NCBI GenBank assembly: GCA_035690485.1
Contig: DASSKL010000080.1
Coordinates: forward strand, 67,797 to 131,796
DNA length: 64,000 nucleotides
Direction: 5' to 3'
Origin: Mycobacteriales bacterium
Lineage (GTDB): Bacteria; Actinomycetota; Actinomycetes; JAFAQI01; DASSKL01
The translations under genes and the position numbers were made by a program. The first letter of the stretch is position 1. Each line of letters begins with the position of its first letter. This document shows, piece by piece, positions 3,998 through 51,568 of the stretch. The notes under the pieces were generated by a model. That model worked only from the letters and a program-made list of their open reading frames with translations. It was not told the origin of the DNA and ran no database searches.

Positions 3998-4003
3998 GGC
4001 CCG

Positions 4004-4249: not shown

Positions 4250-4683
4250 GATCACCTCCCGCCCGGGTGTACGTGCGCCCGGACACCTTCGCCACGGGCA
4301 CCTGCTCGTCCCGCGGCCACGACGGATGGCGCATCCGCGCCTCCCAGTGGACGCGACAGACCGAGCACCACCGCGGGTGGTCCATTCCGTGCGGGCAGCG
4401 CAGCGACGCGCGCCCCGCACCAGGCGGCCGGGCGGTGGTCTTCGTGGCGGCCATGGGCCTAGCGTCGCTGAACCCGTGTCGACGCGGCAGCGGCTTACGA
4501 CTCGACCGTGCGGACCGAACGTCCCGACGCGGACATCCCGGGACTCAGCGTGGCGTCAACGGTCCAACGGCACTTCGCCAGGACCTTCCGGCCCTGGTCC
4601 GCCGTCCGCACCACGGCACACCGTGGAGACGGTCGGCAGCCGGGCGACCAGTGCACGGCTCTGCGAGCAGAAGGGAGAGCGCC

Positions 4684-5361: not shown

Positions 5362-5377
5362 TGCGCCGCACGGGCAC

Positions 5378-5413
5378 GTGGTCGGGGGCGGACGGAGCCC
5401 CGCCCCCGACCAC
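5378..5413 (+). terminator. GC-rich hairpin (14-bp stem GTGGTCGGGGGCGG / CCGCCCCCGACCAC) after the DUF4389 gene
   Basis: The near-perfect inverted repeat is read directly from the sequence, 17 nt after the stop. There is no T-tract, which is usual for actinobacteria. Confidence 0.5.
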
Positions 5414-5458
5414 GGTCCTCCCCAGGGCCCGGAGCCAAAGAGAGGTATGCTCGCCATA

Positions 5459-5472
5459 TACCCCCTGGGGTA
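5459..5472. promoter_or_regulatory. Inverted repeat TACCCC-ct-GGGGTA (CsoR/RicR-type operator-like) 20 nt upstream of the DUF302 start
   Basis: ATATACCCCCTGGGGTAGG read directly. It resembles the TACCC-Nn-GGGTA copper-sensor (CsoR/RicR) operator class. Confidence 0.35.
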
Positions 5473-5491
5473 GGTCGAAGGGAGCGGGAGC

Positions 5492-5899
5492 ATGAACGCA
5501 GTAGGCATGCGGGTGACGGTGCCGCAGGACCTCGACACGGTGCTCGAACGGCTGCGCGGCGCGCTGGCCGATGAGGGCTTCGGCGTGCTCACCGAGATCG
5601 ACGTCCAGGCGACGTTGCGCACCAAGATCGGCGCGGAGGTCGAGCCGTACCGGATTCTCGGCGTCTGCAACCCGCGGCTCGCCCACCAGGCGCTCGAGAT
5701 CGACCGGTCAGTCGGGCTGCTCCTGCCGTGCACGGTCGTCCTCCGCGAGGGCGATGCCGGCAGCACCGTGCTGGAGGTCCAGGACCCGGCAGTCATGGTC
5801 TCGGTCACCGGCGAACCGCGGCTGCGCGTGATAGCCGACGAGGCCGCGCGGCGGTTGAGCGCCGCGGTTCGCCGGCTCGTCGTGGCCGACGCCGCTTAG
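5492..5899 (+). CDS. DUF302 domain-containing protein
   Basis: 135 aa with ATG after GAAGGGAGCGGGAG. The sequence …GFGVLTEIDVQATLRTKIG…YRILGVCNPRLAHQAL… is typical of DUF302. Confidence 0.8.
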   Translation: MNAVGMRVTVPQDLDTVLERLRGALADEGFGVLTEIDVQATLRTKIGAEVEPYRILGVCNPRLAHQALEIDRSVGLLLPCTVVLREGDAGSTVLEVQDPAVMVSVTGEPRLRVIADEAARRLSAAVRRLVVADAA

Positions 5900-5901
5900 A
5901 C

Positions 5902-5944
5902 GGCAGGAGCGTCACCCCCTCCCCCGTAGGGTGGCGCTCCTGCC
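5902..5944 (+). terminator. Compound hairpin GGCAGGAGCG…CGCTCCTGCC enclosing CACCC…GGGTG, directly after the DUF302 stop
   Basis: The 10-bp outer stem plus 5-bp inner stem are read from the sequence. Confidence 0.5.
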
Positions 5945-5970
5945 CCTCCGCCGCTGCTTCGGGACGTTCG

Positions 5971-5986
5971 GCTCTGGCGCCAGAGC
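5971..5986. promoter_or_regulatory. Perfect 16-bp palindrome GCTCTGGCGCCAGAGC about 37 nt upstream of the USP start
   Basis: Read directly from the sequence; candidate operator. Confidence 0.35.
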
Positions 5987-6022
5987 GGCGTTCACGATCG
6001 AATGCACGCGGAGGGATGACTC

Positions 6023-6484
6023 ATGAACGACGTTGTCGTCGGCGTCGACGGGTCCAGCGACTCGGCCCGCGCCCTCGCATGGGCGCTCGAGGAGGCGGAG
6101 GCGCACCAGGTGCGGTTGCGCATCATCACCGTCGTGACGCCGGTGCCGACCGCCGCGACCTGGCCGGTCGACGTGCTCTACGGCAGCGTCACCGACGAGG
6201 ATCTCGCGCGCGCCCAGGCCAACGCCGCGACGATGCTCACCACGGTGGAGAAGGAGCGCGGCCGTCGCGCGCAGGTCGAGGTCGGGGTCGAGGCCCTCAT
6301 CGGCCAGCCCGCGCACACGCTGTGCAGCGCGAGCGCCGACGCGCGTGCGTTGGTCCTCGGCTCGCGCGGTGCCGGCGGCTTCGGCCGGCTGCTGCTCGGC
6401 TCGGTGAGCACCGCCGTGGTGCACCACGCCCGCTGCCCAGTCGTGATCATCCGCCCGCCCGACCCTCGCTCTGACGACCTCTGA
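6023..6484 (+). CDS. Universal stress protein (UspA family)
   Basis: The VVVGVDGSSDSARALAWA… N-terminus and GSRGAGGFGRLLLGSVS motif match the USP family. Confidence 0.85.
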   Translation: MNDVVVGVDGSSDSARALAWALEEAEAHQVRLRIITVVTPVPTAATWPVDVLYGSVTDEDLARAQANAATMLTTVEKERGRRAQVEVGVEALIGQPAHTLCSASADARALVLGSRGAGGFGRLLLGSVSTAVVHHARCPVVIIRPPDPRSDDL

Positions 6485-6533
6485 CCCCCGCTGCCAGGTC
6501 TTGACCGGCAGCGAGATGCGGTAGGCAGGCGCC

Positions 6534-8891
6534 ATGGAAACGACCGTGCCGTCGGACTCCGAGCTCGCGCAGATCGACGCCTACTGGCGAGCAGCCAACT
6601 ACCTGTCCGTGGGGCAGATCTACCTGCTCGCCAACCCTCTGCTGCACGAGCCGCTGCGCGTCCAGCACATCAAGCCGCGGCTGCTGGGCCACTTCGGCAC
6701 GACGCCGGGGCTGAACCTGATCTACGCGCACCTCAACCGGGTCATCAAGCAGCGGGACCTGTCGGCGATCTACGTCACCGGACCCGGCCACGGCGGCCCG
6801 GGCCTCGTCGCCAACGCCTACCTCGAGGGCACCTACACCGAGGTCTACCCCAGCATCGGGCACGACGAGGAGGGGCTGCGACGGCTGTTCCGGCAGTTCT
6901 CCTTCCCCGGCGGCATCCCGAGCCACGTGGCCCCCGAGACACCCGGGTCCATCAACGAGGGCGGTGAGCTGGGCTACTCGCTGGTCCACGCCTACGGTGC
7001 GGCGTTCGACAACCCGGACCTCCTCGTCGCCTGTGTCATCGGCGACGGTGAGGCCGAGACCGGCCCACTCGCGGCCTCCTGGCACTCCACCGCGTTCCTC
7101 GACCCGGTGCACGACGGCGCGGTCCTGCCGATCCTGCACCTCAACGGTTACAAGATCGCAAACCCGACGGTGCTCGCGCGAATCGACGACGCCGAGCTGC
7201 TCGACCTGCTGCGCGGCTACGGCCACGAGCCCTACGTCGTCGCGGGCGACGATCCCGCCCGCGTGCACCGTGAGCTGGCGACCACGCTCGACACGATCTG
7301 CGACCGCATCGCCGAGATCCAGCACGCCGCTCGCGTGGAGGGCGCTACCCACCGGCCGCGCTGGCCCTGCCTCGTCCTGCGTACGCCGAAGGGCTGGACC
7401 GGCCCGAAGACGGTCGACGGGCTGCCGGTCGAGGGTTCGTTCCGCTCGCACCAGGTGCCGCTCGCCGGCGTCCGGGAGAACCCGGAGCACCTGCGGATGC
7501 TCGAGGAGTGGATGCGCTCCTACCGACCCGATGAGCTCTTCGACCGGACCGGCGCGCTGCGCGAAGACCTCACCGCCCTCCCGCCGGCCGGCCCCCGGCG
7601 GATGAGCGCCAACCCGGTGGCCAACGGCGGCCTGCTGCTGCGCGGCCTCGAGCTGCCCGACTTCCGGGACTACGCCGTCACCGTCACCGAGCCCGCGACG
7701 GAGTTCAGCGAGGCGACCTACGTCCTCGGTGAGTGGCTTGCCGACGTCGTACGCCGCAACCCCACGACGTTCCGCATCTTCGGACCCGACGAGACCGCCT
7801 CCAACCGGCTGCAGGCGGTCTTCGAGGCAACCGACCGGATGTGGCAGGCGCGGATGGAGCCGACGGACGACCATCTCGGCCGGTCCGGGCGCGTGCTCGA
7901 GGTGCTCTCCGAGCACCTGTGCGAGGGCTGGCTCGAGGGCTACCTGCTGACGGGCCGGCACGGGTTGTTCAATTGCTACGAGGCGTTCGTCCACATCGTC
8001 GACTCCATGGTCAACCAGCACGCCAAGTGGTTGAAGGTGACCCGGGGGCTCGCATGGCGCCGGCCGATCGCCTCGCTGAACTTCCTGCTGTCCAGCCATG
8101 TGTGGCGCCAGGACCACAACGGCTTCTCCCACCAGGACCCCGGCTTCATCGACCACGTCGTCAACAAGAAGGCCGAGATCGTGCGCGTCTACCTGCCCCC
8201 CGACACGAACACGCTGCTGTCGACGATGGACCACTGCCTGCGGAGCCGGGACTACATCAACGTCGTCGTCGCTGGGAAGCAGCCGGCACTCACCTACCTG
8301 CCGATGGACGAGGCGATGGCCCACTGCACGCGCGGTCTCGGCATCTTCGACTGGGCCAGCAACGACGACGGCGAGGACCCCGACGTCGTGCTGGCCTGTG
8401 CTGGCGACGTGCCGACGCTGGAGACCGTCGCCGCCGCGGCTCTGCTGCGCGAGCACCTGCCGCAGCTCAGGGTGCGGGTCGTCAACGTCGTCGACCTGAT
8501 GCGGCTGCAGACGCCCGACGAGCACCCGCACGGCCTGCCGGACGACCAGTTCGACGCGCTGTTCACGGCCGACCGGCCGGTGGTCTTCGCCTACCACGGC
8601 TACCCGTGGCTGATCCACCGGCTGACCTACCGCCGGACCAACCACGACAACATCCACGTGCGCGGGTACAAGGAAGAGGGGACGACGACCACGCCGTTCG
8701 ACATGGTCATGCTGAACGACCTCGACCGGTTCCACCTGGTCATCGACGTGATCGACCGGGTGCCGCACCTGGGCCAGCGGGTAGCCGGGCTGCGTCAGCG
8801 GATGGTCGACGCGCGGTTGCGGGCACGTGCCTACACCCGCGAGAACGGCGAGGACATGCCGGAGATCAGCGACTGGACCTGGCCCGGCTGA
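6534..8891 (+). CDS. xfp: Phosphoketolase (xylulose-5-P/fructose-6-P phosphoketolase)
   Basis: 785 aa with the canonical N-terminus …[15 protein letters not shown]…HFGTTPGLN…GPGHGGP…GELGYSL… and a TPP-binding GDGE motif. Confidence 0.93.
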
Positions 8892-8892
8892 C

Positions 8893-9990
8893 GTGCGCGT
8901 CCTCGTGGTCAACGCCGGCTCGTCCAGCCTGAAGCTCCGGCTGGTCGAGCCGCCCGAGGGACTGCTGTGGTCCTGCGACGTACCCGGCGGCAATGGCCGG
9001 TTCGACGCCGGGGCGGTCGCCGACGCCGTCGCCGAGGCACGTCGATCCGCGGGCGAGGCCGACGCGGTGGGGCACCGCATCGTCCACGGCGGGACCGAGT
9101 TCAGCGCTCCGGTGCGGATCGACCCCGCCGTGGAGCAGCGACTTCGCGCGCTGACCGACCTCGCGCCGCTGCACCAGCCGAAGTCGCTCGCCGCCCTCGA
9201 CGCGGTGACGGCGGCCCTGCCGGACCTGCCGGCGGTTGCCTGCTTCGACACCGCGTTTCACGCAACCCTGCCGGCGGCTGCCGCGACCTACGCCGTCCCG
9301 CGCGAGTGGCGGGAGAGCTTCGGCCTACGCCGGTTCGGCTTCCACGGGCTGTCGCACGCCTACGTCTCGCGTCGCGTGCAGGAGCTGGCGCCCACGGCTC
9401 GCCGGGTCGTGAGCTGCCATCTGGGCGCGGGCGCTTCGCTGGCGGCGATCCTCGACGGTAGCTGCGTCGACACGACGATGGGCTTCACGCCGCTCGAAGG
9501 TCTGGTGATGGCCACGAGGTCGGGCTCCGTCGACCCAGGCCTGCTGCTGTGGCTGCAGGAGCACACCGGGCTGCGGGAAGGCGACGTCGCCGAGGCGTTG
9601 GAGCACCAATCCGGCCTGCTGGCACTGGCCGGCACTGCCGACATGCGCGAGGTGCTCGACCGGGCAGCCGCCGCAGACCCCGACGCGGCCCTGGCACTCG
9701 CCGTCTACCTGCACCGGCTGCGCGGGCTGATCGCTGCCATGACCGCCTCGCTCGGCGGGCTCGACGTCCTCGCCTTCACCGGTGGCGTGGGCGAGCGCGC
9801 ACCGCGCATCCGGGCCGCGGCCGCAGATGGCCTCGGCTACCTGGGCGTCGCCGTCGACGGGCCGCGCAACGACGGGGCCGACGGCGTCACCGACATCTCC
9901 GCCGAGGCGGCCAGGGCGCGGACATGGGTGATCCCAGCGCGCGAGGACCTGGAGATCGCCCGAGCCGTCGCCGACCTGCTGAGCGGCTGA
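8893..9990 (+). CDS. ackA: Acetate kinase
   Basis: GTG start 1 nt after the xfp stop (TGAcGTG). The product begins VRVLVVNAGSSSLKL and is typical AckA throughout. The upstream ATG at 8827 would overlap xfp by 65 nt and is rejected. Confidence 0.9.
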   Translation: MRVLVVNAGSSSLKLRLVEPPEGLLWSCDVPGGNGRFDAGAVADAVAEARRSAGEADAVGHRIVHGGTEFSAPVRIDPAVEQRLRALTDLAPLHQPKSLAALDAVTAALPDLPAVACFDTAFHATLPAAAATYAVPREWRESFGLRRFGFHGLSHAYVSRRVQELAPTARRVVSCHLGAGASLAAILDGSCVDTTMGFTPLEGLVMATRSGSVDPGLLLWLQEHTGLREGDVAEALEHQSGLLALAGTADMREVLDRAAAADPDAALALAVYLHRLRGLIAAMTASLGGLDVLAFTGGVGERAPRIRAAAADGLGYLGVAVDGPRNDGADGVTDISAEAARARTWVIPAREDLEIARAVADLLSG

Positions 9991-10008
9991 GACCCGCGAG
10001 CCGGCGAA

Positions 10009-11259
10009 TCAGGCGGCCGACAGCCGGTAACGGATGGGCAGCGACCGGTGCCCGTTGACGAAGATGGCCTTGGTCAGCTGCGGCCTGCCGGCGAGGTCGA
10101 CCTGCTCGAGCCGCGGCAGGATCGCGCCGAACAGCGACTCCAGCTCCATCTTGGCCAGCTGGGTGCCCAGGCAGAAGTGCGGGCCGAAGCCGAACGCGAG
10201 GTGGTGGTTGGGCGTGCGGCCGACGTCGAAGGTGAAGGGCGCAGCGAACTCCGCCTCGTCGCGGTTCGCCGACACGTAGGACAGCATCAGCCAGTCACCG
10301 GCCTTGATTCGCTTACCGCCCAGCTCGTAGTCGGTGCGTGCCGTGCGCATGAAGTGCTTGACCGGGCTGACCCAGCGGATCATCTCGTCGACCGCGGTCG
10401 GCAGCAGCGACATGTCGCCCCGCAACCGGGCCAGCTGGTCGGGGTGGTCGATGAGCGCCTGCATGCCGCCGGCCATCGCCGAGCTGGTCGTGTCGTGCCC
10501 GGCGGTCGCGATGATGACGTAGTAGGAGATCGTCTCCAGGTCACCGAGCGGGTGGCCGTCCAGCTCGGCATTCGCGATCATGGAGGCGAGATCCTCGGTC
10601 GGCGTCTCCCGCCGGTCCGCGGTGAGCGTCGTGAAGTAGGCGAAGAAGTCGGTGAGGATCGCTTCGAGGTCCGCGAGCGACGTGCCGCGCGACACGTCGG
10701 GATCCGTGGCGCCGAAGAGCTCTTGCGTCAACTGCAGCATGCGCGGGTAGTCGGCCTCCGGCAGACCGAGGATCGCCAGGATCACCTGCAGGGGGAACGG
10801 CATCGCGACGTCGCGAGCGAAGTCGCACTCGCCGTCCTTGCGCTCGAGCGTCTGCAGCGCCTGCGCCGACAGCGCGTCCAGGCTCCCGGTGAGCCGGCCC
10901 AGCCGGCCGGGGCGGAACCACGGGATGACCAGCTTGCGGTACCTGGGATGGTCCGGCGCGTCCATGTGGATCAGCGTGCGCAGCAGCGGCCCCTGCGCCT
11001 GGTTGCGGCGCACGGCCTCCCAGTTCGCGAGCACCGGCTCCGGCTCGTTGGTGAACCGGTCCGGCTGCAGCTCGATGTCCATGACGTCCGCGTGCCGGGT
11101 GACGAGCCAGAACGGCGGGAAGTCGTCTGCCTCGACGAGATGGACCGGGTCCTCGGCCCGCAGCAGCGCCAGCAACGCGTGCAGGCGGTCGAAGTCGGCG
11201 AAGGTCGCCGGATCCGTGATGGCGCGACCGGCATCGGCGATCGAGAGAGAGGTCGTCAT
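10009..11259 (-). CDS. Cytochrome P450 (CYP125/CYP142-like, steroid-monooxygenase candidate)
   Basis: 416 aa with the heme-thiolate signature FGFGPHFCLG, an ExxR motif and an AGHDTTS I-helix. Family assignment is tentative. Confidence 0.88.
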   Translation of the reverse strand: MTTSLSIADAGRAITDPATFADFDRLHALLALLRAEDPVHLVEADDFPPFWLVTRHADVMDIELQPDRFTNEPEPVLANWEAVRRNQAQGPLLRTLIHMDAPDHPRYRKLVIPWFRPGRLGRLTGSLDALSAQALQTLERKDGECDFARDVAMPFPLQVILAILGLPEADYPRMLQLTQELFGATDPDVSRGTSLADLEAILTDFFAYFTTLTADRRETPTEDLASMIANAELDGHPLGDLETISYYVIIATAGHDTTSSAMAGGMQALIDHPDQLARLRGDMSLLPTAVDEMIRWVSPVKHFMRTARTDYELGGKRIKAGDWLMLSYVSANRDEAEFAAPFTFDVGRTPNHHLAFGFGPHFCLGTQLAKMELESLFGAILPRLEQVDLAGRPQLTKAIFVNGHRSLPIRYRLSAA

Positions 11260-15115: not shown

Positions 15116-16786
15116 GTGTCCAACGCGTCTCTGGCGCACCCGGTCGCGTCCACCCGGCGCTGGGCGCGCGGCGGCGTCGACCGGCTGGCCGACGAGATCG
15201 GCGGGCCCGCGCGCCTGCAGGTGATCGCGATCCTCGCCGCGGTCCTCGCGCTGAACGGCGCGGACCTGGGCACGGTGTCGGCCACCGCCGACGACCTCAA
15301 ACGCGCGTTCGGGATCAACAACACCGACATCGGTCTGCTGGTCACCGCCTCCACGCTGATCGGCGCGATCTTCACCATCCCGGTCGGCGCGCTGACCGAC
15401 AGGGTCCGACGTACCCGGCTGCTCGCGCTGAGCATCGCGATGTGGGCCGTCGCGACGTTCTTCTCCGGGGCCGCGGAGTCCTACGTCTGGCTGATCATGT
15501 CGCGGATAGGGCTCGGTGCGGTCACCGCCACCGCGGGTCCGACGATCGCCTCACTCACCGGCGACTTCTTCCCGGCGAAGGCGCGGGCGCGGATGTACGG
15601 GTTCATCCTGGCCGGCGAGCTGCTCGGCACCGGCTTCGGGTTCGTCGGGTCCGGCTACCTGTCGGCCATTCTGAGCTGGCGCTACGCGTTCTGGTGGCTG
15701 ATCATCCCGAGCGCCGTGCTCACCTACGTCGTCTGGCGGCTGCCGGAACCGGCTCGGGGCGGGCAGAGCCGGCTGAGCGAGGGGCAGGAGGAGCTCGTCG
15801 ACGCCGACGACGTCGAGGACATGCCCCCGAAGAACCAGCGGCGCGAAGAGGAGGCGGCGATCGCCGAGGCCCGCGAGGGCGTCGTCGAGCAGGTGGTCGA
15901 GCAGAACCACACCGAGCCGTACCGCAACCAGATCCTGACCAAGGACCCGGCGAAGAAGAACCTCTGGTGGGCGGTGCGCTACGTGCTGAGGGTGCGCACC
16001 GACGTCGTCATCATCATCGCGTCCGCGCTCGGCTACTTCTACTTCTCCGGGCTGCGCACGTTCGCGATCATCTTCGCCCAGGACCACTACGGCATCTCGA
16101 AGAGCCTCGCCTCCACGCTCGTCATCGTCATCGGGCTCGGCGCACTCGCCGGGGTCTACGCCGGCGGCCGCGTGTCGGACAAGCTCATGGCCCGCGGCGT
16201 GGTCAACGCCCGCGTCATCGTGCCGGCGGTCGTGATGCTCACGATCTCGGTGTTCCTGGCACCGGCCTTCCTGCTGACACAGCTCTGGATCGCGATCCCA
16301 CTGCTCACGATCGGCGCAGGGCTGCTCGGCGCGGCCAACCCGCCGCAGGACGCGGCGCGGCTCGACATCATCCACCCCCATCTCTGGGGCCGGTCCGAAG
16401 GCATCCGCTCGGCCCTGCGCGGGGTCCTCGACGCGGCGGCGCCGGTGACCTTCGGGCTGGTTTCCGACCGGTTGTTCGGCGGCAACGTGACGTTCGGCGG
16501 CAACCGGGCGGGCGGGGACCACTCGGAGGCGCTGGGCTACACGTTCCTGCTCTTCCTCGTCGTCGTCATCGCCGCCGGGCTGATAGTCCTGATCGCCCTG
16601 CGCACCTACCCGCGCGACGTGGCGACCGCCGACGCCTCCGTCGCCAACACCCTCGGCGACCGGCGCGGCGACCGGCGCCGCAGCCGCCGGGGGGAGGGCG
16701 CCGGCGAGCCGTACGCCGAGGAGCCGGGCGCCGAAGCCGGCGAGCCGGCCCGGTCAGCCGGCCGCGAGCCGGTCGGCGAGCCGTGA
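15116..16786 (+). CDS. MFS transporter with large acidic central loop
   Basis: 556 aa with 12 TM segments, the MFS signature G..TDRVRRTR and a Glu-rich cytoplasmic loop. Confidence 0.85.
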   Translation: MSNASLAHPVASTRRWARGGVDRLADEIGGPARLQVIAILAAVLALNGADLGTVSATADDLKRAFGINNTDIGLLVTASTLIGAIFTIPVGALTDRVRRTRLLALSIAMWAVATFFSGAAESYVWLIMSRIGLGAVTATAGPTIASLTGDFFPAKARARMYGFILAGELLGTGFGFVGSGYLSAILSWRYAFWWLIIPSAVLTYVVWRLPEPARGGQSRLSEGQEELVDADDVEDMPPKNQRREEEAAIAEAREGVVEQVVEQNHTEPYRNQILTKDPAKKNLWWAVRYVLRVRTDVVIIIASALGYFYFSGLRTFAIIFAQDHYGISKSLASTLVIVIGLGALAGVYAGGRVSDKLMARGVVNARVIVPAVVMLTISVFLAPAFLLTQLWIAIPLLTIGAGLLGAANPPQDAARLDIIHPHLWGRSEGIRSALRGVLDAAAPVTFGLVSDRLFGGNVTFGGNRAGGDHSEALGYTFLLFLVVVIAAGLIVLIALRTYPRDVATADASVANTLGDRRGDRRRSRRGEGAGEPYAEEPGAEAGEPARSAGREPVGEP

Positions 16787-18403
16787 CGCCAGCGCCATGA
16801 TCGTGAGTGCCGGGTTGGCACTGCCCTGAGTCGGGCAGACCGAGCCGTCGCTGATGTAGACGTTGGGCACGTCCCACACCCGATGCCCGGCGTCGACGAC
16901 CGAGTTGTCCGGTGCGGTGCCCATGCGGGCGCCGCCGATGAGATGCGCGAAGCGCTGAACCGTCAGCACGTCCTGCGCGCCCGCCGCATGCAGGATGTCC
17001 TGGATGATCTTCGTCGAGAACTCCATGTTCGCGTGGTCGTTGTCGCCGAGGCTGTAGTCGAAGCGGGCGACCGGCAGACCGTAGGGGTCCGTCTCGTCGG
17101 CCAGCGTGACCCGGTTGTCGGCGTGCGGCAACAGCTCGTTGAGCACGCCGACCGTCGCCCAGTGGTTGTAGTCGCGCATGTACTCCCGCAGCGCCGCGCC
17201 CCAGTGCCCGTCGGCGAGCACGTGCTCGGCCCACGCGATCGGCAGCGGGTGCACGGTCTGGATGGAGAAGCCGCGTGCGAAGCCGCGCGACTCGTCGGTC
17301 TCGTAGAACTGCTCGCTCGACACCTCGGGCGGCGGCGCCTTGTAGGAACGCAGCTCCTGCCCGAACCGCCCCGCGGTCTGGGTCGCGCCCTGCACCATGA
17401 CGTAACGGCCGACCTGGTCGTGGTTGTTGCCGAGCCCGTGCGGGTGCCGGCGGCTGGTCGACTGCAGCAGCAGCCGCGGCGTCTCGATGGAGTAGCCCGC
17501 GACGGCGACGACCTTGGCGCGCTGCAGCCGCTCGGTGCGGTCGCCCTCGCGCAGGTAGGTCACGCCGATGGCACGGCCGCTCGCGTCGTCGATCTCGACC
17601 CGCGACACCATGCAGTCGGCCCGGACCTCGACGTCGTGGGCCAGCGCATCGGGCAGGTGGGTCACGTAGGGGCTGGCCTTCGCGTTGACCTTGCACCCCT
17701 GCAGGCAGTAGCCGCGGTAGATGCAGTGCGGCCGGTTGCCGAACGTCCCGTTGACGATGCCCACCGGCCCGACCCGCATCTCGATGCCGAGCTTGCGGGC
17801 GCCGCGCCACAACACGGCGGCCGGCGCGCTGATCGGATGGGGGCTGAAGGGGTACTTGTGCGGGTCGCCCCAGGGCCAGTCCTGCCCGGCCACCGGCAGC
17901 TCGCGCTCGACCCGGCGGTAGTGCGGCTCGAGATCCCAGTAGGAGATCGGCCAGTCGGCGCCGACCCCGTCGCGCGAGTAGGTCTCGAAGTCGGACGGAT
18001 GGAACCGCGGCGTGTAGCCCGCATAGTGGATCATCGACCCACCGACCCCACGGCCGGAGTTGTTGTGACCCATCGCGACCGGGTCGCTGCCGCCGATGAT
18101 CCGCTTCTGCGTCCAGTAGAGCGCGTGCGATCCGGCCTCGTCGGACACCCAGTCCTCGTCGGGGTGCCAGAACGGCCCCGCCTCGATGATGACCACCCGC
18201 CAGCCCCGCCGGGCCAGCCGCTGCGCGAGCACCGACCCACCGGCGCCCGCCCCGACGACCACGAGGTCGACCTCGTCGCTGTCGTCGTAGCGACGCATCG
18301 TGTCCTCGCCGGGCAGCTGCCGGGAGTGGACGTCGAGCAGGAAGCGGGAGTCGTTGTCGCGCGGGCCGACGGCTCCCTTCAGCGCGTAGCGCAAGCCGCT
18401 CAT
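16754..18403 (-). CDS. GMC family oxidoreductase (FAD-dependent)
   Basis: Start at MSGLRYALK overlaps the upstream stop (TGATG). Carries the VVVGAGAGG FAD motif and a GMC C-terminal HxxGGxRMG-like sequence. Confidence 0.9.
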   Translation of the reverse strand: MSGLRYALKGAVGPRDNDSRFLLDVHSRQLPGEDTMRRYDDSDEVDLVVVGAGAGGSVLAQRLARRGWRVVIIEAGPFWHPDEDWVSDEAGSHALYWTQKRIIGGSDPVAMGHNNSGRGVGGSMIHYAGYTPRFHPSDFETYSRDGVGADWPISYWDLEPHYRRVERELPVAGQDWPWGDPHKYPFSPHPISAPAAVLWRGARKLGIEMRVGPVGIVNGTFGNRPHCIYRGYCLQGCKVNAKASPYVTHLPDALAHDVEVRADCMVSRVEIDDASGRAIGVTYLREGDRTERLQRAKVVAVAGYSIETPRLLLQSTSRRHPHGLGNNHDQVGRYVMVQGATQTAGRFGQELRSYKAPPPEVSSEQFYETDESRGFARGFSIQTVHPLPIAWAEHVLADGHWGAALREYMRDYNHWATVGVLNELLPHADNRVTLADETDPYGLPVARFDYSLGDNDHANMEFSTKIIQDILHAAGAQDVLTVQRFAHLIGGARMGTAPDNSVVDAGHRVWDVPNVYISDGSVCPTQGSANPALTIMALASRLADRLAAG

Positions 18404-19161
18404 CAGCGACCCTCGTCGGCGCGGCGGCGCTGCTCGATCTGCTGCGCGACCGGTGCCGGGTCCTCGTTGCCGGCGCCCGGCTTCTCCCAGGGCTCGAGCG
18501 TGCTGGTCGGCCCGAGCCGCATGTAGCCCCGGGGGTAGGCCGGCCCGCCGAAGCCGATCTCGTTCCACGACCACGGGTGGGAGTAGAAGCCCTCGAGCAC
18601 CGCGCGCAGGACGACCGACCACGCCCGCGACACGTTGAGCTGCTCCCACGGGCCGCCGTCGAGGTCGCCCTGCGAGAAGCCGTCGACGATCGCCTCCTGC
18701 GCACCGGGCGCGCAGTGCGCGAACGCCCGGCCGTGCCGCTGCTGCGCGGTGTGCTCCAGCCCGGCCAGCACCAGGTGCCAGGTGTCGCGGTCGTCCGGCA
18801 TGTCGGCGTACTGGAACCCGTCGAGCCGGCCGTCGGCCAGCTTGGCGTCGATCGCGCTGACGACCGGGACTCGCGGCTCCGCGTGCTGGTCGGTCACCAG
18901 GTCGCAGAACGCCCGCACGGTCGGCTCCTCCCTCGCGGAGAAGAACCGCAACGGCCCGGGCGGGTCGAGCCGAGCGAGGACGACCTTGCGGGTTGCCTCG
19001 TCCCACGTGTCGGCGACCGACAGCACGTCGTAGTCGGGGTAGCGACCGATCATCTGCGGCGTCGTCCCGACGCGCTGCCGCGGCCAGGTCTCGGCCGGGT
19101 CGCCCGGCTTGTTGCCCGGCCGGCGCTTCGGCAGGTGGTGCGGCAGGGACGGGTCGGCCAC
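18403..19161 (-). CDS. Gluconate 2-dehydrogenase subunit 3 family protein (small subunit partner of the GMC dehydrogenase)
   Basis: 252 aa with the conserved …WDEATRKVVLARLDP…FF…E…FCDLV.. pattern. It is translationally coupled to the GMC gene. Confidence 0.75.
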   Translation of the reverse strand: MADPSLPHHLPKRRPGNKPGDPAETWPRQRVGTTPQMIGRYPDYDVLSVADTWDEATRKVVLARLDPPGPLRFFSAREEPTVRAFCDLVTDQHAEPRVPVVSAIDAKLADGRLDGFQYADMPDDRDTWHLVLAGLEHTAQQRHGRAFAHCAPGAQEAIVDGFSQGDLDGGPWEQLNVSRAWSVVLRAVLEGFYSHPWSWNEIGFGGPAYPRGYMRLGPTSTLEPWEKPGAGNEDPAPVAQQIEQRRRADEGR

Positions 19162-19162
19162 G

Positions 19163-19663
19163 TCAGTCCTCCCGCCGCAGCAGCGCCGCGAGCAGGCCCA
19201 TGCCGCCGACGATGCACATCAGCCCGGGCGCGGCGATCGGTGGACCGGTGGGGACGTTGTACGACGCGTTGGCCCAGCCCCCCGGCTTGCGGGCGACCCC
19301 ACGCGCGTGGAAGTACTCGCCGAGCAGGCCGTTGGCCGTGTAGATCCCGGCGGTGATCGGGAGGACGGTCTTCGCCCACTTGCGGGAGAACACGCCGCCG
19401 ATGCCGGCCACCATGACCGGCGGGGTGACGAGGATCGGGCTCCACATCCACTTGTTGCCGAAGCTCGCCTTGTAGTGCTCGAAGTAGATCTCTGCCGTCG
19501 TCACCGCCGCCGAGACCGCCGTCAGCGCCGACAGCGACCGCTCGAAGCGACCGTGCTCGACGTTGCGCGCCCAGTGGTCGATGACGTGCTCGGCACCGCG
19601 CACCCGCTGACCGTGGGATCGGCGCGACGAACCGGGTCCGGTCAACGTAGGCAGCCATCGCAT
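19163..19663 (-). CDS. Small membrane protein (3-4 TM), first gene of the GMC-dehydrogenase operon
   Basis: Start at MRWLP after GGCGAGGAG. It lies 2 nt upstream of the subunit-3 gene. Confidence 0.55.
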   Translation of the reverse strand: MRWLPTLTGPGSSRRSHGQRVRGAEHVIDHWARNVEHGRFERSLSALTAVSAAVTTAEIYFEHYKASFGNKWMWSPILVTPPVMVAGIGGVFSRKWAKTVLPITAGIYTANGLLGEYFHARGVARKPGGWANASYNVPTGPPIAAPGLMCIVGGMGLLAALLRRED

Positions 19664-19757
19664 CGCCGTGCTCCTCGCCGTGGGGGTCGTCAGCCGCGAA
19701 CTACCACCGACGCCCGTCCCCAAACACCGGGCCGGGCGCTGTGATTCGCTTGCTGCC

Positions 19758-20219
19758 ATGCTCGCGCCAGGGACGCCTGCGCCCGGCTTCGCGCTGCCCG
19801 ACCAGGACGGCCGCACGGTCCGGCTGGCCGACTTCGCCGGTCGCTGGCTGCTGCTCTGGTGGTACCCCAAGGCCTCCACGCCCGGTTGAACGGTGGAGGG
19901 CTGGGCCTTGCGGGACAGGGCCGCGGAGTTCGCCGCCGCCGGCTGCGCCGTCGTCGGAGCGTCGTTCGACCCGCCGGAGGCGAACAAGGAGTTCGCCGAC
20001 GCGCAGGCGTTCGGCTTCCCGCTGCTGTCCGACGTCGACCGCAGCGTCGGGCGCGCCTACGGCGTGACCCGCGACGACGACGACCAGTACGCCGCCTACC
20101 CCCAGCGCGTCTCCTACCTGATCGACGCCGGCGGGGTCGTCCGGGTCGTCTACACCGTGGCCGACGTCGAGGGCCATGCCGACGCGGTGCTCGCCGACCT
20201 CGCCCGGCTGCGGACGTGA
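19758..20219 (+). CDS. bcp: Bcp/PrxQ-type peroxiredoxin with in-frame TGA (19887..19889) at the peroxidatic-Cys position: selenocysteine candidate or nonsense-mutated pseudogene
   Basis: …FALPDQDGRTVRLADFAGRWLLLWWYPKASTPG[TGA]TVEGWALRD… aligns with the Bcp motif YFYPKxxTPGCTxxAC.FRD. The reading frame and GC3 bias continue intact to the stop at 20219. Confidence 0.7.
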
Positions 20220-20953
20220 CCGCCGAGGCACGGGCCGGCACCACGAGCGACACCGCAGAGCTCGACAAGAGGGTCAACCAGGTCAGCTCGGGCGGCGCCC
20301 GCGCGGCGGTGCTCGGCGTCAGCGACGGCTTGGTCACCAACGTCAGCCTCATCCTTGGCCTGGCCGGCGCCGGCGCGTCCGCGTCGAGCGTGCGGCTCGC
20401 CGGGTTCGCCAGCCTGATCGCCGGCGCGCTGTCGATGGCGGCGGGCGAGTGGATCTCCGTACGCAGCCAGGTCGAGCTGTACGAGTCCGTGCTGTCCGAC
20501 GTACGCCGGCTCGTCGCCCGCAACCCGCGGCTGGTCCTCCGGGAGCTGACCGACCGGTTGGAGCACGCCGGCCTGGGTCGCAGCACCGCGCAGGTGGCGA
20601 GCACGGAGCTGCCGCTCGACGAGCCGCGCTTCCTGCGCTTCACCGCGCGCACGGTGTTCGGCGTCGACCCCGACCAGCTCGGCTCACCGTGGACGGCAGC
20701 GGTCACGTCGCTGCTGCTGTTCGCCCTCGGCGCGGCCGTGCCGCTGCTGCCGTGGTTCTTCGGCCGCGGGGCCACTGCCGCCGGGTGGTCGGTCGGGCTG
20801 ACGATGGCGGCCAGCCTGCTGACCGGGGCCGTGGTCAGTCGCAGCAGCGGTCGGCACGCGGGCTACGGTGCGGTGCGCCAGGCGCTGATCGTGGCGGCCG
20901 CCGCCGGAGCGACCTACGGCATCGGCCTGGCCTTCGGCGCGACACTGTCCTGA
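20216..20953 (+). CDS. VIT1/CCC1 family (DUF125) iron/manganese transporter
   Basis: GTG start overlaps the bcp stop (GTGA). The GVSDGLVTNVSLILG motif and 5 TM segments match the family. Confidence 0.8.
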   Translation: MTAEARAGTTSDTAELDKRVNQVSSGGARAAVLGVSDGLVTNVSLILGLAGAGASASSVRLAGFASLIAGALSMAAGEWISVRSQVELYESVLSDVRRLVARNPRLVLRELTDRLEHAGLGRSTAQVASTELPLDEPRFLRFTARTVFGVDPDQLGSPWTAAVTSLLLFALGAAVPLLPWFFGRGATAAGWSVGLTMAASLLTGAVVSRSSGRHAGYGAVRQALIVAAAAGATYGIGLAFGATLS

Positions 20954-22521: not shown

Positions 22522-22531
<10 letters not shown>

Positions 22532-23535
22532 CTCACCTTCACGACGCCGGTCTTCGGCAGCGACTGGCAGGCCAGGATCCAGCCCTCGTCCAGGTCCTCC
22601 TGCTCGAGCACCTGGTTGTCGACCATCTCCACCTCGCCCTCGACCAGCCGGCAGGCGCAGGCGCTGCAGTTGCCCTCGCGGCAGGAGTAGGGCGCGTCGA
22701 GGCCCTTGGCCAGCAGCACGTCGAGCAGGTGTGACTGCACGGGCCAGGCCACCTCGAAGCTCTCTCCGTCGAGCTCCACGTGCACGGTCGCGGTCGGGCC
22801 ACCGTCGTCGACGACCTCGACGGGCTGCCCCCAGCTGCTGCCGGAGAGGCTGACGAACCGTTCGAGGTGCATGTTGGCCCGCGGCACCCCGAGCGAGGTC
22901 AGCGCAGCGCTCACGGCATCCATGTAGGGCGCCGGGCCGCAGAGAAACGCGTCGTACGCCGTGTAGGGCCGGGCCAGCTCCGCCAGCTGGGCGGTCGCCG
23001 GCACCCCCTGCACCGACTCCAGCCAGTGCACGACGGACAACCGGTCGGGGTGCCGCGCGGACAGGTCCGCCAGCTCGCGGGCGAAGATGACCGATCGCTC
23101 GTCACGGTTGGCGTAGACGAGCACGAGGTGGCCGGTGCCGGTGGCGAGCGCGCTCTTCACGATCGACATCACCGGGGTGATGCCGCTGCCGCCGGCGAAC
23201 AGCAGCAGGTCGCCGGACAAATCCTTCGGGGTGAAGTGACCGGCGGGTGGCAGGACCTCGATGACCGTGCCCGGCCGCACGTTGTCGCAGACCCAGTTGG
23301 ACCCGTAGCCGTCGACGGTGCGCTTGACCGTCACCTTCATCAGGTCATCGACGTGCGGCGAGCTCGACAGCGAGTAGCAGCGTGCGGTCGGCTCCCGGTC
23401 GCTCGGGATGCGCAGGGTGAGGAACTGGCCGGGCCGGTAGGGCATCGGCGGGCCGTCGAAGACGACGGAGTGCGCGTCGTCGGTCTCCCGGACGATCTCC
23501 TTGACCGTCAGCTCGCGCGGGGCGTGGTCACTCAC
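22522..23535 (-). CDS. kshB: 3-ketosteroid 9alpha-hydroxylase reductase component (FNR-like plus C-terminal [2Fe-2S] ferredoxin)
   Basis: GTG start overlaps the upstream small ORF's stop. Carries the RCYSLSS FAD motif, an NAD-binding GGSGITP motif and a C-terminal CREGNCSACAC…C plant-type ferredoxin. Confidence 0.85.
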
Positions 23536-23798
23536 CGGTCCCCCACCGGGAGGCGCCCGCTGGCGACCGCGTCGTCGATGCTCGCGCGCAAGGACTCGCA
23601 GGCCGCGACCCGCGCGGTGCTGGCACCGGCGGCGCGGCGCTCGGCCAGCTCGGCGCACGACTGCCCAGGATCCGTGCACCACTGGATGCTGGTCTGCGCG
23701 AAGGTGTCCTTGCGCACCAGCACCGTGGTGCCGCAGCGACGGCAGGCCAGCTCCTGCATCGAGCGGCCGTCGTCGCGTTCGTCCCGGAGCACCGCCAC
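23532..23798 (-). CDS. Small Cys-rich hypothetical protein (CxxC-x19-C-x6-C), translationally coupled between kshA and kshB
   Basis: 88 codons with G/C at nearly every third position. The start GTG lies 4 nt after the kshA stop, and the stop overlaps the kshB GTG (GTGA). Confidence 0.45.
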   Translation of the reverse strand: MAVLRDERDDGRSMQELACRRCGTTVLVRKDTFAQTSIQWCTDPGQSCAELAERRAAGASTARVAACESLRASIDDAVASGRLPVGDR

Positions 23799-23802
23799 CG
23801 GT

Positions 23803-24966
23803 CTAGGCGCGGGCGGCAGCGACGTCGCCCACCTGGCCGCCGGCCTGCGCCGCCTCCACCAGCTGCTTCTGCCACGACTCGACCGCGCGAGTCGTGTCGA
23901 TCTCGAACTCGAAGCGTTGCACCATCTCGGGCGCGATGTCGGCCACGTCGACGTAGAACTGCTCGTACCAGCGGCGCAGCTGGTAGACCGGCCCGTCCTC
24001 CTCGCACAGCAGCGGGTTGTCGATCCGGGTCTTGTGCTGCCAGATCTTGACGTCTTCCAGGAACCCCTCGCCGATCATCCGGGTCATCTTGCGGGCGACC
24101 TTGGCCATCGTCTCGTCGTCGAGGCCGGGGATCTTCTTGACGATCATGCCGTACTGCAGCACGAACGAGTTGGGCGTCACCGGGTAGTGCGCGGTGATGA
24201 GGATCGACGAGATCGTCATGCCGCCGTAGTTGTCCTCGAGCCAGTCGACGAGGTAGGCGGGGCCGAAGTAGGTGGCCTCCGACTTCGTCAGCTGCCCCTC
24301 GAAGACCCCGATCTCGATCGGGGCACCGGTCGCCGCAGTCTCGTGGTTGGTGCCGGCGTAGTACTGCGTCGCGAGGTGGCCCTCGAAGACGTTCTTGAAG
24401 TAGGTCGGCAGGCCCTTGTGGATGTAGTAGAAGTGGGCCATGTCGACCATGTTGTCGACGATCTCGCGGGAGTGACTGTTGTCGACCGGGATCTGCTCCC
24501 AGGTCCAGTCGGTCCACTCGCCCGCGTCGTAACCGTCGAAGACCGGGATCGTCACGTCGTCGGGCGGAGGGTTGCCCTCGGGGTCGTGCCAGACGAACAG
24601 GTGACCGTTGCGCTCCAGCGTCAGCCACGACTTCGTGCGCGCCCGCGGCGGCACCCGCCGGGCGTAGGGGATCTCCTGGCACTTGCCGTTGCCACCCCAG
24701 CGCCAGCCGTGGAACGGGCAGGCCAGGTTGTCGCCCTGCACGGTGCCCTGGCTCAGGTCGCCACCCATGTGCCGGCAGTAGGAGTCGAGAGCGTGCAGCT
24801 CCCCGTCGGCCCCCTGCCAGACGACGAGCTTGCCGCCGAAGGCGTAGACGCCGTGCGGCTTGCCGTCGCGAAACATGCGCGCCGGGCCGAGGCAGTGCCA
24901 GCCGCGCGCGTACCGGGCCGGCGGCGTGCTGGTCTGGATGACGCGGGTCTCGTCGACGGCAGTCAC
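23803..24966 (-). CDS. kshA: 3-ketosteroid 9alpha-hydroxylase oxygenase component (Rieske)
   Basis: GTG after AGGAGG. The Rieske motif is CRHMGGDLS…CPFHGWRW. The mononuclear Fe region DMAHFYYIH and the C-terminus LRRWYEQFYVDVADI are near-identical to mycobacterial KshA. Confidence 0.93.
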   Translation of the reverse strand: MTAVDETRVIQTSTPPARYARGWHCLGPARMFRDGKPHGVYAFGGKLVVWQGADGELHALDSYCRHMGGDLSQGTVQGDNLACPFHGWRWGGNGKCQEIPYARRVPPRARTKSWLTLERNGHLFVWHDPEGNPPPDDVTIPVFDGYDAGEWTDWTWEQIPVDNSHSREIVDNMVDMAHFYYIHKGLPTYFKNVFEGHLATQYYAGTNHETAATGAPIEIGVFEGQLTKSEATYFGPAYLVDWLEDNYGGMTISSILITAHYPVTPNSFVLQYGMIVKKIPGLDDETMAKVARKMTRMIGEGFLEDVKIWQHKTRIDNPLLCEEDGPVYQLRRWYEQFYVDVADIAPEMVQRFEFEIDTTRAVESWQKQLVEAAQAGGQVGDVAAARA

Positions 24967-50636: not shown

Positions 50637-50647
50637 GGCAGCGCTCC

Positions 50648-51556: not shown

Positions 51557-51568
51557 CCCATCGCCCTT

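What the first reader, a model, noticed from the sequence alone, without database searches (positions are those of the whole stretch)
19758..20219. In-frame TGA at the peroxidatic-Cys codon of a Bcp-type peroxiredoxin: selenocysteine-Prx candidate
The bcp-like gene reads …WWYPKASTPG-[TGA]-TVEGWALRD…. This aligns residue for residue with the Bcp/PrxQ active site YFYPKxxTPG-C-TxxAC.FRD, so the TGA sits at the peroxidatic-Cys position. The resolving Cys is replaced by Trp. The frame continues for 110 more codons with intact third-position GC bias, and the gene is translationally coupled (GTGA) to the downstream VIT transporter. Bcp/Prx-like selenoproteins with Sec at the peroxidatic position are known in bacteria. 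Alternatively this is a very recent TGC/TGT-to-TGA nonsense mutation. A GC-rich hairpin can be drawn 3..50 nt downstream (GGTGG…GGCC-N11-GGCC…CCGCC), but I cannot fold it reliably by eye.
Basis: partly seen in the sequence, partly recalled or inferred. Interest (0 to 1): 0.85.

Follow-up and report, generated by a model that had tools for sequence, protein, structure and literature searches.

The report
Selenocysteine peroxiredoxin gene, real but known
The in-frame TGA almost certainly encodes selenocysteine at the active site of a Bcp/PrxQ-type peroxide-destroying enzyme, because the same TGA and an RNA hairpin after it are conserved in about 80 related genomes. Selenium-containing peroxiredoxins of this type have been known since 2001-2005, so this is a correct call on an ordinary member of a known family.

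Summary
Window 19758-20219 (+) encodes a 153-residue Bcp/PrxQ peroxiredoxin. Its only interruption is TGA 19887-19889, which sits exactly at the peroxidatic-Cys position (YPKASTPG-U-T).

It is not a recent nonsense mutation:
- 79 of 80 species-level genomes retrieved with this protein carry TGA at the same codon. They are mostly Acidimicrobiia, with some Mycobacteriales.
- The nearest relatives (~89% nt identity) keep the TGA, with dN/dS ~0.32 on both sides of it.
- 59 of 83 of these genes also end in TGA, so TGA is still a stop codon in these genomes.
- A 7-bp hairpin starts 14 nt after the UGA (window 19904-19922, loop CGGGA; CGUGA in most relatives). It is 92-99% paired across 71 sequences, shows compensatory changes, and is absent from the four Cys-form relatives.

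The enzyme has no resolving Cys, so it is a "1-Sec" peroxiredoxin. In this subclade the gene overlaps a VIT1 Fe/Mn transporter gene by 4 nt.

Sec-peroxiredoxins with the TxxU motif (COG1225) are an established bacterial selenoprotein family. This is therefore a new member of a known kind, and public gene calls split it into fragments.

The parts
19758..20219 (+). Bcp/PrxQ-type peroxiredoxin gene: 153 codons plus stop, read through one in-frame UGA. Catalytic residues are P37, T41, U44 and R117.
   Evidence: Pfam AhpC-TSA 3e-34. Aligns to Xanthomonas Bcp 5iph over residues 7-148.
19887..19889 (+). UGA codon 44, read as selenocysteine, at the peroxidatic-Cys position (STPG-U-T).
   Evidence: aligned to Cys of STPGCT. 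(TGA in 79 of 80 genome loci, TGC in L044 only). (TGA kept in L088, L091 and L094).
19904..19922 (+). SECIS-like hairpin. 5' arm GGCCUUG 19904-19910, apical loop CGGGA 19911-19915, 3' arm CAGGGCC 19916-19922. It starts 14 nt after the UGA.
   Evidence: (92.4% paired, 23 double-change cells, 0/500 shuffles). (99% paired in the 7-nt-loop class). (Sec forms 70/83 with 7/7 pairs; Cys forms 3-5/7). (rare AGG codon needed for pairing).
19891..19938 (+). Possible outer stems around the hairpin (CGGUGG/CCGCCG and GGGCU/AGUUC) in the MFE fold. Not supported comparatively.
   Evidence: MFE -26.5 kcal/mol. (enclosing pairs 70% versus 59% with shuffled flanks, no energy gain). (z=+0.87).
19902..19904 (+). 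Trp49 codon at the +5 position, where E. coli-type BCPs carry the resolving Cys.
   Evidence: +5 is Q/R/G/W and so on, never Cys, in 86 Sec forms.
20216..20953 (+). VIT1/CCC1-family Fe2+/Mn2+ transporter gene. Its GTG start overlaps the peroxiredoxin stop by 4 nt (GTGA).
   Evidence: PF01988, 4.8e-54. (identical to HET7407847.1). (same arrangement in Sec-form and Cys-form relatives of this subclade).
19663..19757 (.). Intergenic region between the divergent membrane-protein gene and the peroxiredoxin gene. It presumably holds the promoter or operator. The block 19686-19729 is almost invariant among relatives (one substitution, in L094).
   Evidence: 94% column identity, higher than the ~89% of the coding region. 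(no sigma-70 consensus match).

Best explanation
The gene encodes a selenocysteine-containing Bcp/PrxQ peroxiredoxin.

Decoding. During translation, UGA-44 is decoded as Sec by SelB and Sec-tRNA(Sec). These are recruited by a short hairpin in the mRNA 14 nt downstream: a 7-bp stem with a small G-containing apical loop.

Catalysis. The selenolate sits in the PxxxTxxU/Arg active site and reduces H2O2 or organic hydroperoxides to form a selenenic acid. The clade has no conserved resolving Cys. Recycling must therefore go through an external thiol such as thioredoxin or a mycothiol/mycoredoxin-type system, giving a 'GPx-like' 1-Sec cycle on a Prx scaffold.

Operon. In the window's subclade the gene is co-transcribed and translationally coupled with a VIT1 Fe2+/Mn2+ transporter gene. 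This plausibly links peroxide removal with lowering of Fenton-active iron.

Shown: the UGA position, its conservation, purifying selection, the covarying hairpin, the absence of a resolving Cys, and the VIT1 linkage.

Inferred: SelB dependence, actual selenium incorporation, the reductant, and the physiological role of the VIT1 pairing.
For: - UGA aligns to the peroxidatic Cys of solved Bcp structures, and the catalytic Arg is kept.
- 79 of 80 genome loci at 45-68% aa identity carry TGA at this codon.
- Dozens of database homologues are called as 103-110-aa fragments starting just after the TGA.
- L001 and L002 show a 43-aa N-fragment, then TGA, then a C-fragment.
- 59 of 83 Sec-form genes terminate in TGA, so TGA is not globally reassigned.
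- The closest relatives keep TGA, with dN/dS ~0.32 overall. Upstream and downstream parts each have dN 0.06-0.10 against dS 0.21-0.31.
- The hairpin is 92.4% and 99.0% paired, against 12-65% when partners are slid. There are 23 and 11 double-sided compensatory cells, with 0/500 shuffles reaching the observed values.
- Four Cys-form relatives lack the hairpin, with 3-5 of 7 pairs.
- The window's hairpin uses AGG, which is 2.4% of Arg codons here, where pairing demands it.
- 40 of 86 Sec forms contain no Cys at all.
- Sec-Prx with the TxxU motif in COG1225 is an established family (PMC1088965, PMC1794560, PMC5029168, PMC13188914).
Against: - No selA, selB, selD or tRNA-Sec was found in the 64-kb window, in ~10 kb beyond each end, or in 1.48 Mb of related loci. 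The rest of the genome could not be searched, so the Sec-decoding trait of this MAG is unproven.
- No other TGA-interrupted gene occurs in the window.
- The hairpin is not thermodynamically exceptional in this GC-rich context.
- Its loop is CGGGA rather than the majority CGUGA. L001, L005 and the window's nearest relatives share CGGGA.
- There is no experimental evidence of selenium incorporation for this clade.
Confidence: 0.9

Rival explanations
1. Recent nonsense mutation: a TGC/TGT-to-TGA change has just inactivated an ordinary Cys-peroxiredoxin, and the gene is a young pseudogene.
For: A single-base change from TGC/TGT gives TGA. Cys-form homologues exist at 60-69% identity. Gene callers treat the gene as two fragments.
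Against: TGA is at the same codon in 79 of 80 species-level genomes and in all three nearest relatives. dN/dS is ~0.32 on both sides of the TGA. A covarying hairpin is present only in the TGA forms.
Confidence: 0.01
2. Relic selenoprotein gene: the family is genuinely Sec-decoded elsewhere, but this Mycobacteriales MAG has lost the Sec machinery. Here the gene yields only a truncated 43-aa peptide.
For: No sel genes or tRNA-Sec were seen in the ~84 kb inspected. No second selenoprotein gene occurs in the window. Loss of the Sec trait is common in bacterial evolution (PMC1794560).
Against: Within the window's own shallow lineage, the ORF, the TGA and the hairpin are all intact. Substitutions are mostly synonymous both upstream and downstream of the TGA. 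The 4-nt coupling to VIT1 is retained. About 84 kb is only a small fraction of a genome, so absence there says little.
Confidence: 0.05
3. Non-Sec read-through: the UGA is suppressed by a near-cognate or suppressor tRNA that inserts Trp, Cys or Gly, or TGA is reassigned in these lineages. The hairpin merely stimulates read-through.
For: UGA is the leakiest stop codon. Downstream structures can stimulate read-through. No Sec machinery was demonstrated here.
Against: 59 of 83 of these genes also end with TGA, and TGA terminates neighbouring genes, so there is no reassignment. The UGA sits exactly at the redox-active Cys position. This is the signature of Sec/Cys pairs used to define selenoproteins (PMC1088965). 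Trp or Gly there would kill catalysis. The position and shape of the hairpin fit bacterial SECIS elements.
Confidence: 0.03
4. Sequencing or assembly error in this MAG created a spurious TGA.
For: The source is a metagenome-assembled genome.
Against: The identical 43-aa and 103-aa fragments occur on 71 and 59 independent contigs from JGI, ENA and Logan assemblies. L088-L090 reproduce the TGA.
Confidence: 0.005

Closest known systems
Bacterial Sec-containing peroxiredoxin family ('Prx', TxxU motif, COG1225/PF00578) from selenoproteome surveys (Zhang, Gladyshev and co-workers: PMC1088965, PMC1794560, PMC5029168; review PMC13188914)
   Same: Sec replaces the peroxidatic Cys in PxxxTxxU. It belongs to the Bcp-type COG. 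A SECIS hairpin lies directly after the UGA with a small G-containing loop. Cys-form homologues are widespread.
   Different: Those surveys do not describe this particular Actinomycetota clade (WWYPKAST-x-G-U-T), which is mostly Acidimicrobiia plus some Mycobacteriales. They also do not describe its complete lack of a resolving Cys, or its VIT1 partner. No paper in the library mentions Acidimicrobiia together with a selenoproteome. No NCBIfam model reaches its cut-off for it.
PrxU of Eubacterium acidaminophilum (Sohling et al. 2001, cited in PMC13188914; NCBIfam NF040737 peroxi_PrxU)
   Same: An experimentally shown selenoprotein in which Sec occupies the peroxidatic position of a peroxiredoxin.
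   Different: PrxU belongs to a different Prx subfamily (233-position NCBIfam model). The window protein scores 47 bits against a cut-off of 270. PrxU comes from a strict anaerobe; this clade is in largely aerobic Actinomycetota.
Cys-type Bcp/PrxQ (E. coli BCP, Xanthomonas campestris Bcp 5iph/3gkk)
   Same: Same fold and active-site motif (P, T, Arg). 86 bits to Xanthomonas Bcp. 112 bits to PRK09437.
   Different: Sec replaces Cys at the peroxidatic site. There is no resolving Cys at +5 (E. coli type; from my own knowledge) or at the helix-3 position (Xanthomonas type; also from my own knowledge of C84, read onto the alignment). The score is below the PRK09437 equivalog cut-off of 140.
1-Cys peroxiredoxin AhpE of Mycobacterium tuberculosis (1xxu, 4x0x)
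   Same: An actinobacterial Prx that works without a resolving Cys and is recycled by an external thiol system. That recycling point is established knowledge, not tested here.
   Different: A different Prx subfamily (54 bits), and Cys-based.
Bacterial VIT1/CCC1-type iron exporters
   Same: The downstream gene is a full-length VIT1 domain protein (PF01988). An iron-efflux role under peroxide stress is the known theme of the family; that is background knowledge, not tested here.
   Different: Translational coupling to a (seleno)peroxiredoxin has not been described, to my knowledge. It is restricted to the window's subclade: 17 of 88 loci.

Membership tests
Bacterial selenoprotein (Sec-decoded gene) | In-frame UGA aligned with a redox-active Cys in homologues (Sec/Cys pair) | tested here: met
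   (UGA aligns to Cys of STPGCT in 5iph). (Cys forms P0001, P0002, P0007, P0011, P0012).
Bacterial selenoprotein (Sec-decoded gene) | UGA conserved among orthologues, with purifying selection continuing downstream | tested here: met
   (79/80 loci TGA). (dN/dS ~0.32; downstream dN 0.07-0.10 against dS 0.24-0.25).
Bacterial selenoprotein (Sec-decoded gene) | SECIS stem-loop immediately 3' of the UGA, inside the ORF, with a small apical loop containing G | tested here: met
   A 7-bp stem 14 nt after the UGA, loop CG(U/G)GA(+0-2 nt), covariation 0/500 shuffles, absent in Cys forms. Definition from PMC1088965.
Bacterial selenoprotein (Sec-decoded gene) | selA, selB, selC (tRNA-Sec) and selD present in the same genome | not testable with these tools
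   Only the window plus ~10 kb on each side could be read. None was found there or in 1.48 Mb of related loci. This is uninformative for the whole genome.
Bacterial selenoprotein (Sec-decoded gene) | Selenium demonstrably incorporated (75Se labelling or mass spectrometry) | not testable with these tools
   Experimental.
Peroxiredoxin, Bcp/PrxQ subfamily | Thioredoxin-fold AhpC/TSA domain over the whole protein | tested here: met
   (PF00578, residues 4-130 to profile 1-123/124, E=3e-34).
Peroxiredoxin, Bcp/PrxQ subfamily | Active-site PxxxTxxC(U) motif plus conserved Arg | tested here: met
   P37-K-A-S-T41-P-G-U44. R117 aligns with the Arg of ...ERSTFLL... in 5iph.
Peroxiredoxin, Bcp/PrxQ subfamily | Closest to Bcp rather than AhpC/Prx1, Tpx or AhpE | tested here: met
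   (Bcp chains 78-87 bits, against AhpE 54, Prx1/2 ~50, Tpx 40). (PRK09437 best at 112 bits, but below the equivalog cut-off of 140).
Peroxiredoxin, Bcp/PrxQ subfamily | Resolving Cys (atypical 2-Cys mechanism) at +5 or in helix 3 | tested here: not met
   never Cys at +5, and 40 of 86 Sec forms have no Cys at all. The protein therefore works as a 1-Sec (1-Cys-type) Prx. 1-Cys BCPs are accepted members of the subfamily, so this does not exclude membership.
PrxU (NF040737) | Score at or above the NCBIfam equivalog cut-off | tested here: not met
   47 bits against 270.
VIT1/CCC1 transporter (downstream gene) | Full-length PF01988 domain | tested here: met
   (E=4.8e-54, profile 2-213/214). (NCBI name of the identical protein).

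The most novel reading that the evidence does not exclude
The window belongs to a large, apparently single-origin clade of Cys-free '1-Sec' Bcp peroxiredoxins (WWYPKAST-x-G-U-T) that has not been specifically described. The clade is near-universal in Acidimicrobiia and present in some soil Mycobacteriales.

In this reading, Sec is ancestral and Cys forms are repeated secondary reversions (NJ tree). The SECIS hairpin visibly constrains the protein sequence (Ala...Ala versus Gly...Ser covariation, and rare AGG/CGA codons). Public gene calls systematically split the gene into fragments.

In the window's subclade, the gene together with a translationally coupled VIT1 transporter would form a selenium-dependent peroxide/iron-efflux module. 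If so, abundant aerobic Actinomycetota would depend on selenium for peroxide defence.
Probability: 0.35. Interest if true: 0.5.

Novelty: new member of a known kind. Interest (0 to 1): 0.33.

Why it matters
The gene is a working selenoprotein gene that automatic annotation breaks into a 43-aa and a ~103-108-aa 'peroxiredoxin Q/BCP' fragment. This happens on dozens of contigs and in about 80 species-level genomes. The peroxide-defence capacity and selenium dependence of Acidimicrobiia and some Mycobacteriales are therefore understated in databases.

The clade offers a clean natural set of Sec/Cys pairs on the same scaffold. It could be used to ask what Sec buys a peroxiredoxin that has no resolving Cys. 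It is also a compact, well-covarying actinobacterial SECIS.

The finding does not change what is known in kind. Sec-peroxiredoxins and their SECIS elements are textbook bacterial selenoproteome items.

Tried and rejected
- Thermodynamic test of the hairpin region. The fold of 19880-19960 is no more stable than shuffles (z=+0.87), so energy alone cannot support a SECIS in this GC-rich DNA. I used covariation instead.
Enclosing pairs are 70% against 59% with shuffled flanks, with no energy gain. Rejected as unsupported.
- Rfam scan of the window at gathering thresholds. No hits, and no tRNA-Sec.
- ARAGORN on the window and on 1.48 Mb of loci. No tRNA-Sec. The single 'tRNA-Gly(ACC)' call lies inside an SDR gene and is a false positive.
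- Scan of the window for other TGA-interrupted coding frames. The first thresholds were too strict and missed even the prx gene. After relaxing them, the only other site, 39042(-), is the ordinary stop of the gene at 39040-40203.
- Motif search for SelA, SelD and SelB-like signatures in all loci. The motifs were recalled from memory, so the test has low power. No credible hit.
- Gene tables ~10 kb beyond both window ends. No sel genes.
- Exact look-up of a full-length product with U or X at position 44. Not accepted or not on record, so how NCBI annotated the gene is unknown.
- Sigma-70 promoter and terminator scan around the gene. Nothing found, as expected for a high-GC actinobacterium.
- Literature search for Sec-PrxQ in Acidimicrobiia. 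Nothing specific.
- I did not run a structure prediction. The fold and active site are clear from sequence.

Full report
**Observation**

An ATG at 19758 opens a frame that translates to MLAPGTPAPGFALPDQDGRTVRLADFAGRWLLLWWYPKASTPG, then TGA at 19887-19889. The same frame continues for 109 codons (TVEGWALRDR...ARLRT) to TGA 20217-20219. GC3 is 0.90 before and 0.97 after the internal TGA.

With Cys substituted at the stop, the 153-residue protein matches Pfam AhpC-TSA end to end (E=3e-34). It is closest to solved Bcp/PrxQ structures (Xanthomonas Bcp 5iph/3gkk, about 86 bits). The stop aligns with the peroxidatic Cys of STPGCT, and R117 aligns with the catalytic Arg. NCBIfam's best model is the Bcp equivalog PRK09437 at 112 bits, below its cut-off of 140. 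The Sec-specific PrxU model scores only 47 of 270 bits.

The next gene is a VIT1/CCC1 transporter (PF01988, 4.8e-54). Its GTG start at 20216 overlaps the peroxiredoxin stop by 4 nt. The resulting product is identical to NCBI protein HET7407847.1.

**Is the TGA a lesion or a codon?**

One kind is full-length Cys forms at 60-69% identity. The other is dozens of 103-110-residue proteins at 64-98% identity that begin just after the TGA ('(V/M)EGxALRDRA...' or 'MRDRA...'). That is what a gene caller produces when it meets the same in-frame stop.

DNA confirmed this. In L001 and L002 a 43-residue AhpC-TSA fragment ends in TGA at the same codon and is followed by the C-terminal fragment and a VIT1 gene.

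A scan of one genome per species returned 80 loci at 45-68% identity. They are mostly Acidimicrobiia and unclassified Actinomycetota MAGs, with two Mycobacteriales, two labelled Acidobacteriota and one labelled Myxococcota. Of these, 79 have TGA at the peroxidatic codon and one (L044) has TGC. One of the search patterns was WWYPKAST, so the sample is biased towards this clade, but it is not biased with respect to TGA versus TGC.

59 of 83 distinct Sec-form genes also terminate in TGA, so TGA remains a stop codon in these organisms.

In the window's own shallow lineage, L088 differs by 2 nt, and L091 and L094 differ by about 52-54 of 462 nt. All keep the TGA and an unbroken frame. dN/dS is about 0.32, with the same pattern upstream (dN 0.07-0.10, dS 0.27-0.31) and downstream (dN 0.07-0.09, dS 0.24-0.25) of the TGA.

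The identical fragments occur on 59-71 independent contigs, which excludes an assembly error. A recent nonsense mutation is therefore excluded.

**The RNA element**

Folding the 49 nt after the UGA in every distinct Sec form gives, in 71 of 84 cases, the same hairpin. It is a 7-bp stem whose 5' arm begins 14 nt after the UGA, closed by a small loop that begins CGUGA. Three length classes exist: 5-, 6- and 7-nt loops (26, 16 and 41 sequences).

In the window the element is GGCCUUG (19904-19910), CGGGA (19911-19915), CAGGGCC (19916-19922).

On the gapless alignment of the 5-nt-loop class (30 sequences, including the window), 92.4% of cells pair, against 32-54% when the 3' partners are slid. 23 cells carry changes on both sides (0 of 500 shuffles reach this). 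On the 7-nt-loop class (41 sequences), 99.0% pair, against 12-65% slid, with 11 double changes (0 of 500).

70 of 83 Sec forms have 7 of 7 pairs. The four distinct Cys forms for which DNA was obtained (L044, L084, L085, L086) have only 3-5 of 7 and do not fold this way.

The hairpin leaves marks on the coding sequence. The window uses AGG for Arg54, which is 2.4% of Arg codons in the window's genes, because its A must pair with the middle U of the Leu codon. The 7-nt-loop class uses CGA, which is similarly rare in the window's genes. Paired amino-acid changes (Ala...Ala versus Gly...Ser) follow the base pairs.

Two caveats apply. By free energy alone the region is unremarkable in this 72% GC DNA (z=+0.87).

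**Mechanism**

The active-site set P37, T41, U44 and R117 is intact.

Position +5 is where E. coli-type BCPs carry the resolving Cys (my own knowledge of that family). It is Trp in the window's subclade, and Gln, Arg or Gly elsewhere, but never Cys. 40 of 86 Sec forms contain no Cys at all.

The enzyme must therefore work as a 1-Sec peroxiredoxin. The selenolate attacks the peroxide, and the selenenic acid is resolved by an external thiol. Which thiol (thioredoxin or a mycothiol/mycoredoxin system) is inference.

The VIT1 partner, with the 4-nt overlap, is confined to the window's subclade (17 of 88 loci). It accompanies both Sec and Cys forms. A link between peroxide removal and iron or manganese efflux is plausible but untested.

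**What could not be shown**

The window comes from an NCBI 'MAG TPA: Mycobacteriales bacterium' (proteins HET7407833-891). Only the window and about 10 kb beyond each end could be read.

No selA, selB, selD or tRNA-Sec is present there, or in 1.48 Mb of related loci. No second TGA-interrupted gene occurs in the window. This is uninformative for a genome of several Mb.

The literature records the Sec trait in aerobic Actinobacteria such as Nakamurella and Microlunatus (PMC5029168).

I put 5% on the possibility that this particular organism has lost the machinery and carries a relic. The gene, the TGA and the hairpin all remain under selection in its nearest relatives.

**Comparison with what is known**

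Sec-containing peroxiredoxins are established:
- PrxU of Eubacterium acidaminophilum was shown experimentally in 2001 (cited in PMC13188914).
- It was found in 78 organisms in a 2016 survey (PMC5029168).
- It is listed in a 2026 review (PMC13188914).

The window's gene meets every testable criterion for that family.

What seems undescribed is the particular Actinomycetota clade. No paper in the library combines Acidimicrobiia with a selenoproteome, and no NCBIfam model captures the clade. Also apparently undescribed are its Cys-free nature, its three SECIS loop classes and the VIT1 operon.

A neighbour-joining tree without support values places several Cys groups inside the Sec clade. This suggests Sec-to-Cys reversions from a Sec ancestor, but it is only suggestive.

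**Verdict**

The finding is a new member of a known kind, and its main practical value is in correcting annotation. Interest is about 0.33.

Noticed in passing
window 55410-55494 (+): ARAGORN calls an 85-nt 'tRNA-Gly (ACC)' here. It lies inside a short-chain dehydrogenase gene (55087-55884), and Rfam finds no tRNA in the window. It is almost certainly a false positive.
   Followed up: partly
window 19663-19757 (block 19686-19729): The intergenic region upstream of the peroxiredoxin gene is better conserved among the nearest relatives (94% column identity) than the coding region (~89%). It contains a 44-nt block, GTCGTCAGCCGCGAACTACCACCGACGCCCGTCCCCAAACACCG, that is almost invariant (one substitution, in L094). 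It may be a promoter or operator for a redox or metal regulator. No sigma-70 consensus was found.
   Followed up: partly
window 19163 to about 19662 (-): The divergently transcribed gene upstream encodes a small predicted membrane protein with no Pfam match. It is followed by a gluconate 2-dehydrogenase subunit 3-like gene (18403-19161) and a GMC oxidoreductase gene (16754-18403).
   Followed up: no
window 22522-24966 (-), 49602-54922 (-): Steroid-ring degradation genes: kshB-like reductase (22522-23535), kshA (23803-24966, KshA_C 2e-86), hsaA-like monooxygenase (53756-54922), hsaC-like extradiol dioxygenase (52863-53756), a flavin reductase (52354-52866), and an aldolase/acetaldehyde dehydrogenase pair (49602-51556). 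The peroxiredoxin-VIT1 pair sits at the edge of this oxygenase-rich cluster.
   Followed up: partly
window 55-9990: The left end looks like a stress or dormancy-type cluster. It holds a CBS-domain protein, a P-type cation ATPase (501-3107), DUF302, a universal stress protein (6023-6484), a phosphoketolase (6534-8891) and an acetate kinase (8893-9990). More Usp and nitroreductase genes lie just beyond the window.
   Followed up: no
L047, L049 (Acidobacteriota MAGs) and L069 (Myxococcota MAG), match at about 10001-10465: Sec-form genes of this otherwise actinobacterial clade occur in MAGs labelled as other phyla. This could be horizontal transfer or mis-binning. In L069 the canonical stem pairs at only 3 of 7 positions, and RNAfold draws an alternative hairpin.
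   Followed up: no
alignments A1/A2 (window 19887-19942 and equivalents): The SECIS stem forces covariation at the protein level. 'Q-A-L-R-D-R-A' (GCC...GCC) alternates with 'Q-G-L-R-D-R-S' (GGC...UCC), and the stem imposes the rare Arg codons AGG or CGA. It is a clear example of an RNA structure shaping an enzyme's sequence next to its active site.
   Followed up: partly
protein clusters of window 19758-19886 and 19911-20219: Public gene calls (JGI, ENA, Logan) record this gene as two separate proteins, a 43-aa and a 103/108-aa 'peroxiredoxin Q/BCP', on 59-71 contigs. NCBI holds neither fragment. How NCBI annotated the locus (pseudogene or Sec) could not be determined.
   Followed up: partly
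L044, L084-L087; P0001-P0031: Cys-form homologues are nested at several places inside the Sec clade in a neighbour-joining tree. Those closest to the window keep the VIT1 partner. This suggests repeated Sec-to-Cys replacement with loss of the hairpin.
   Followed up: partly
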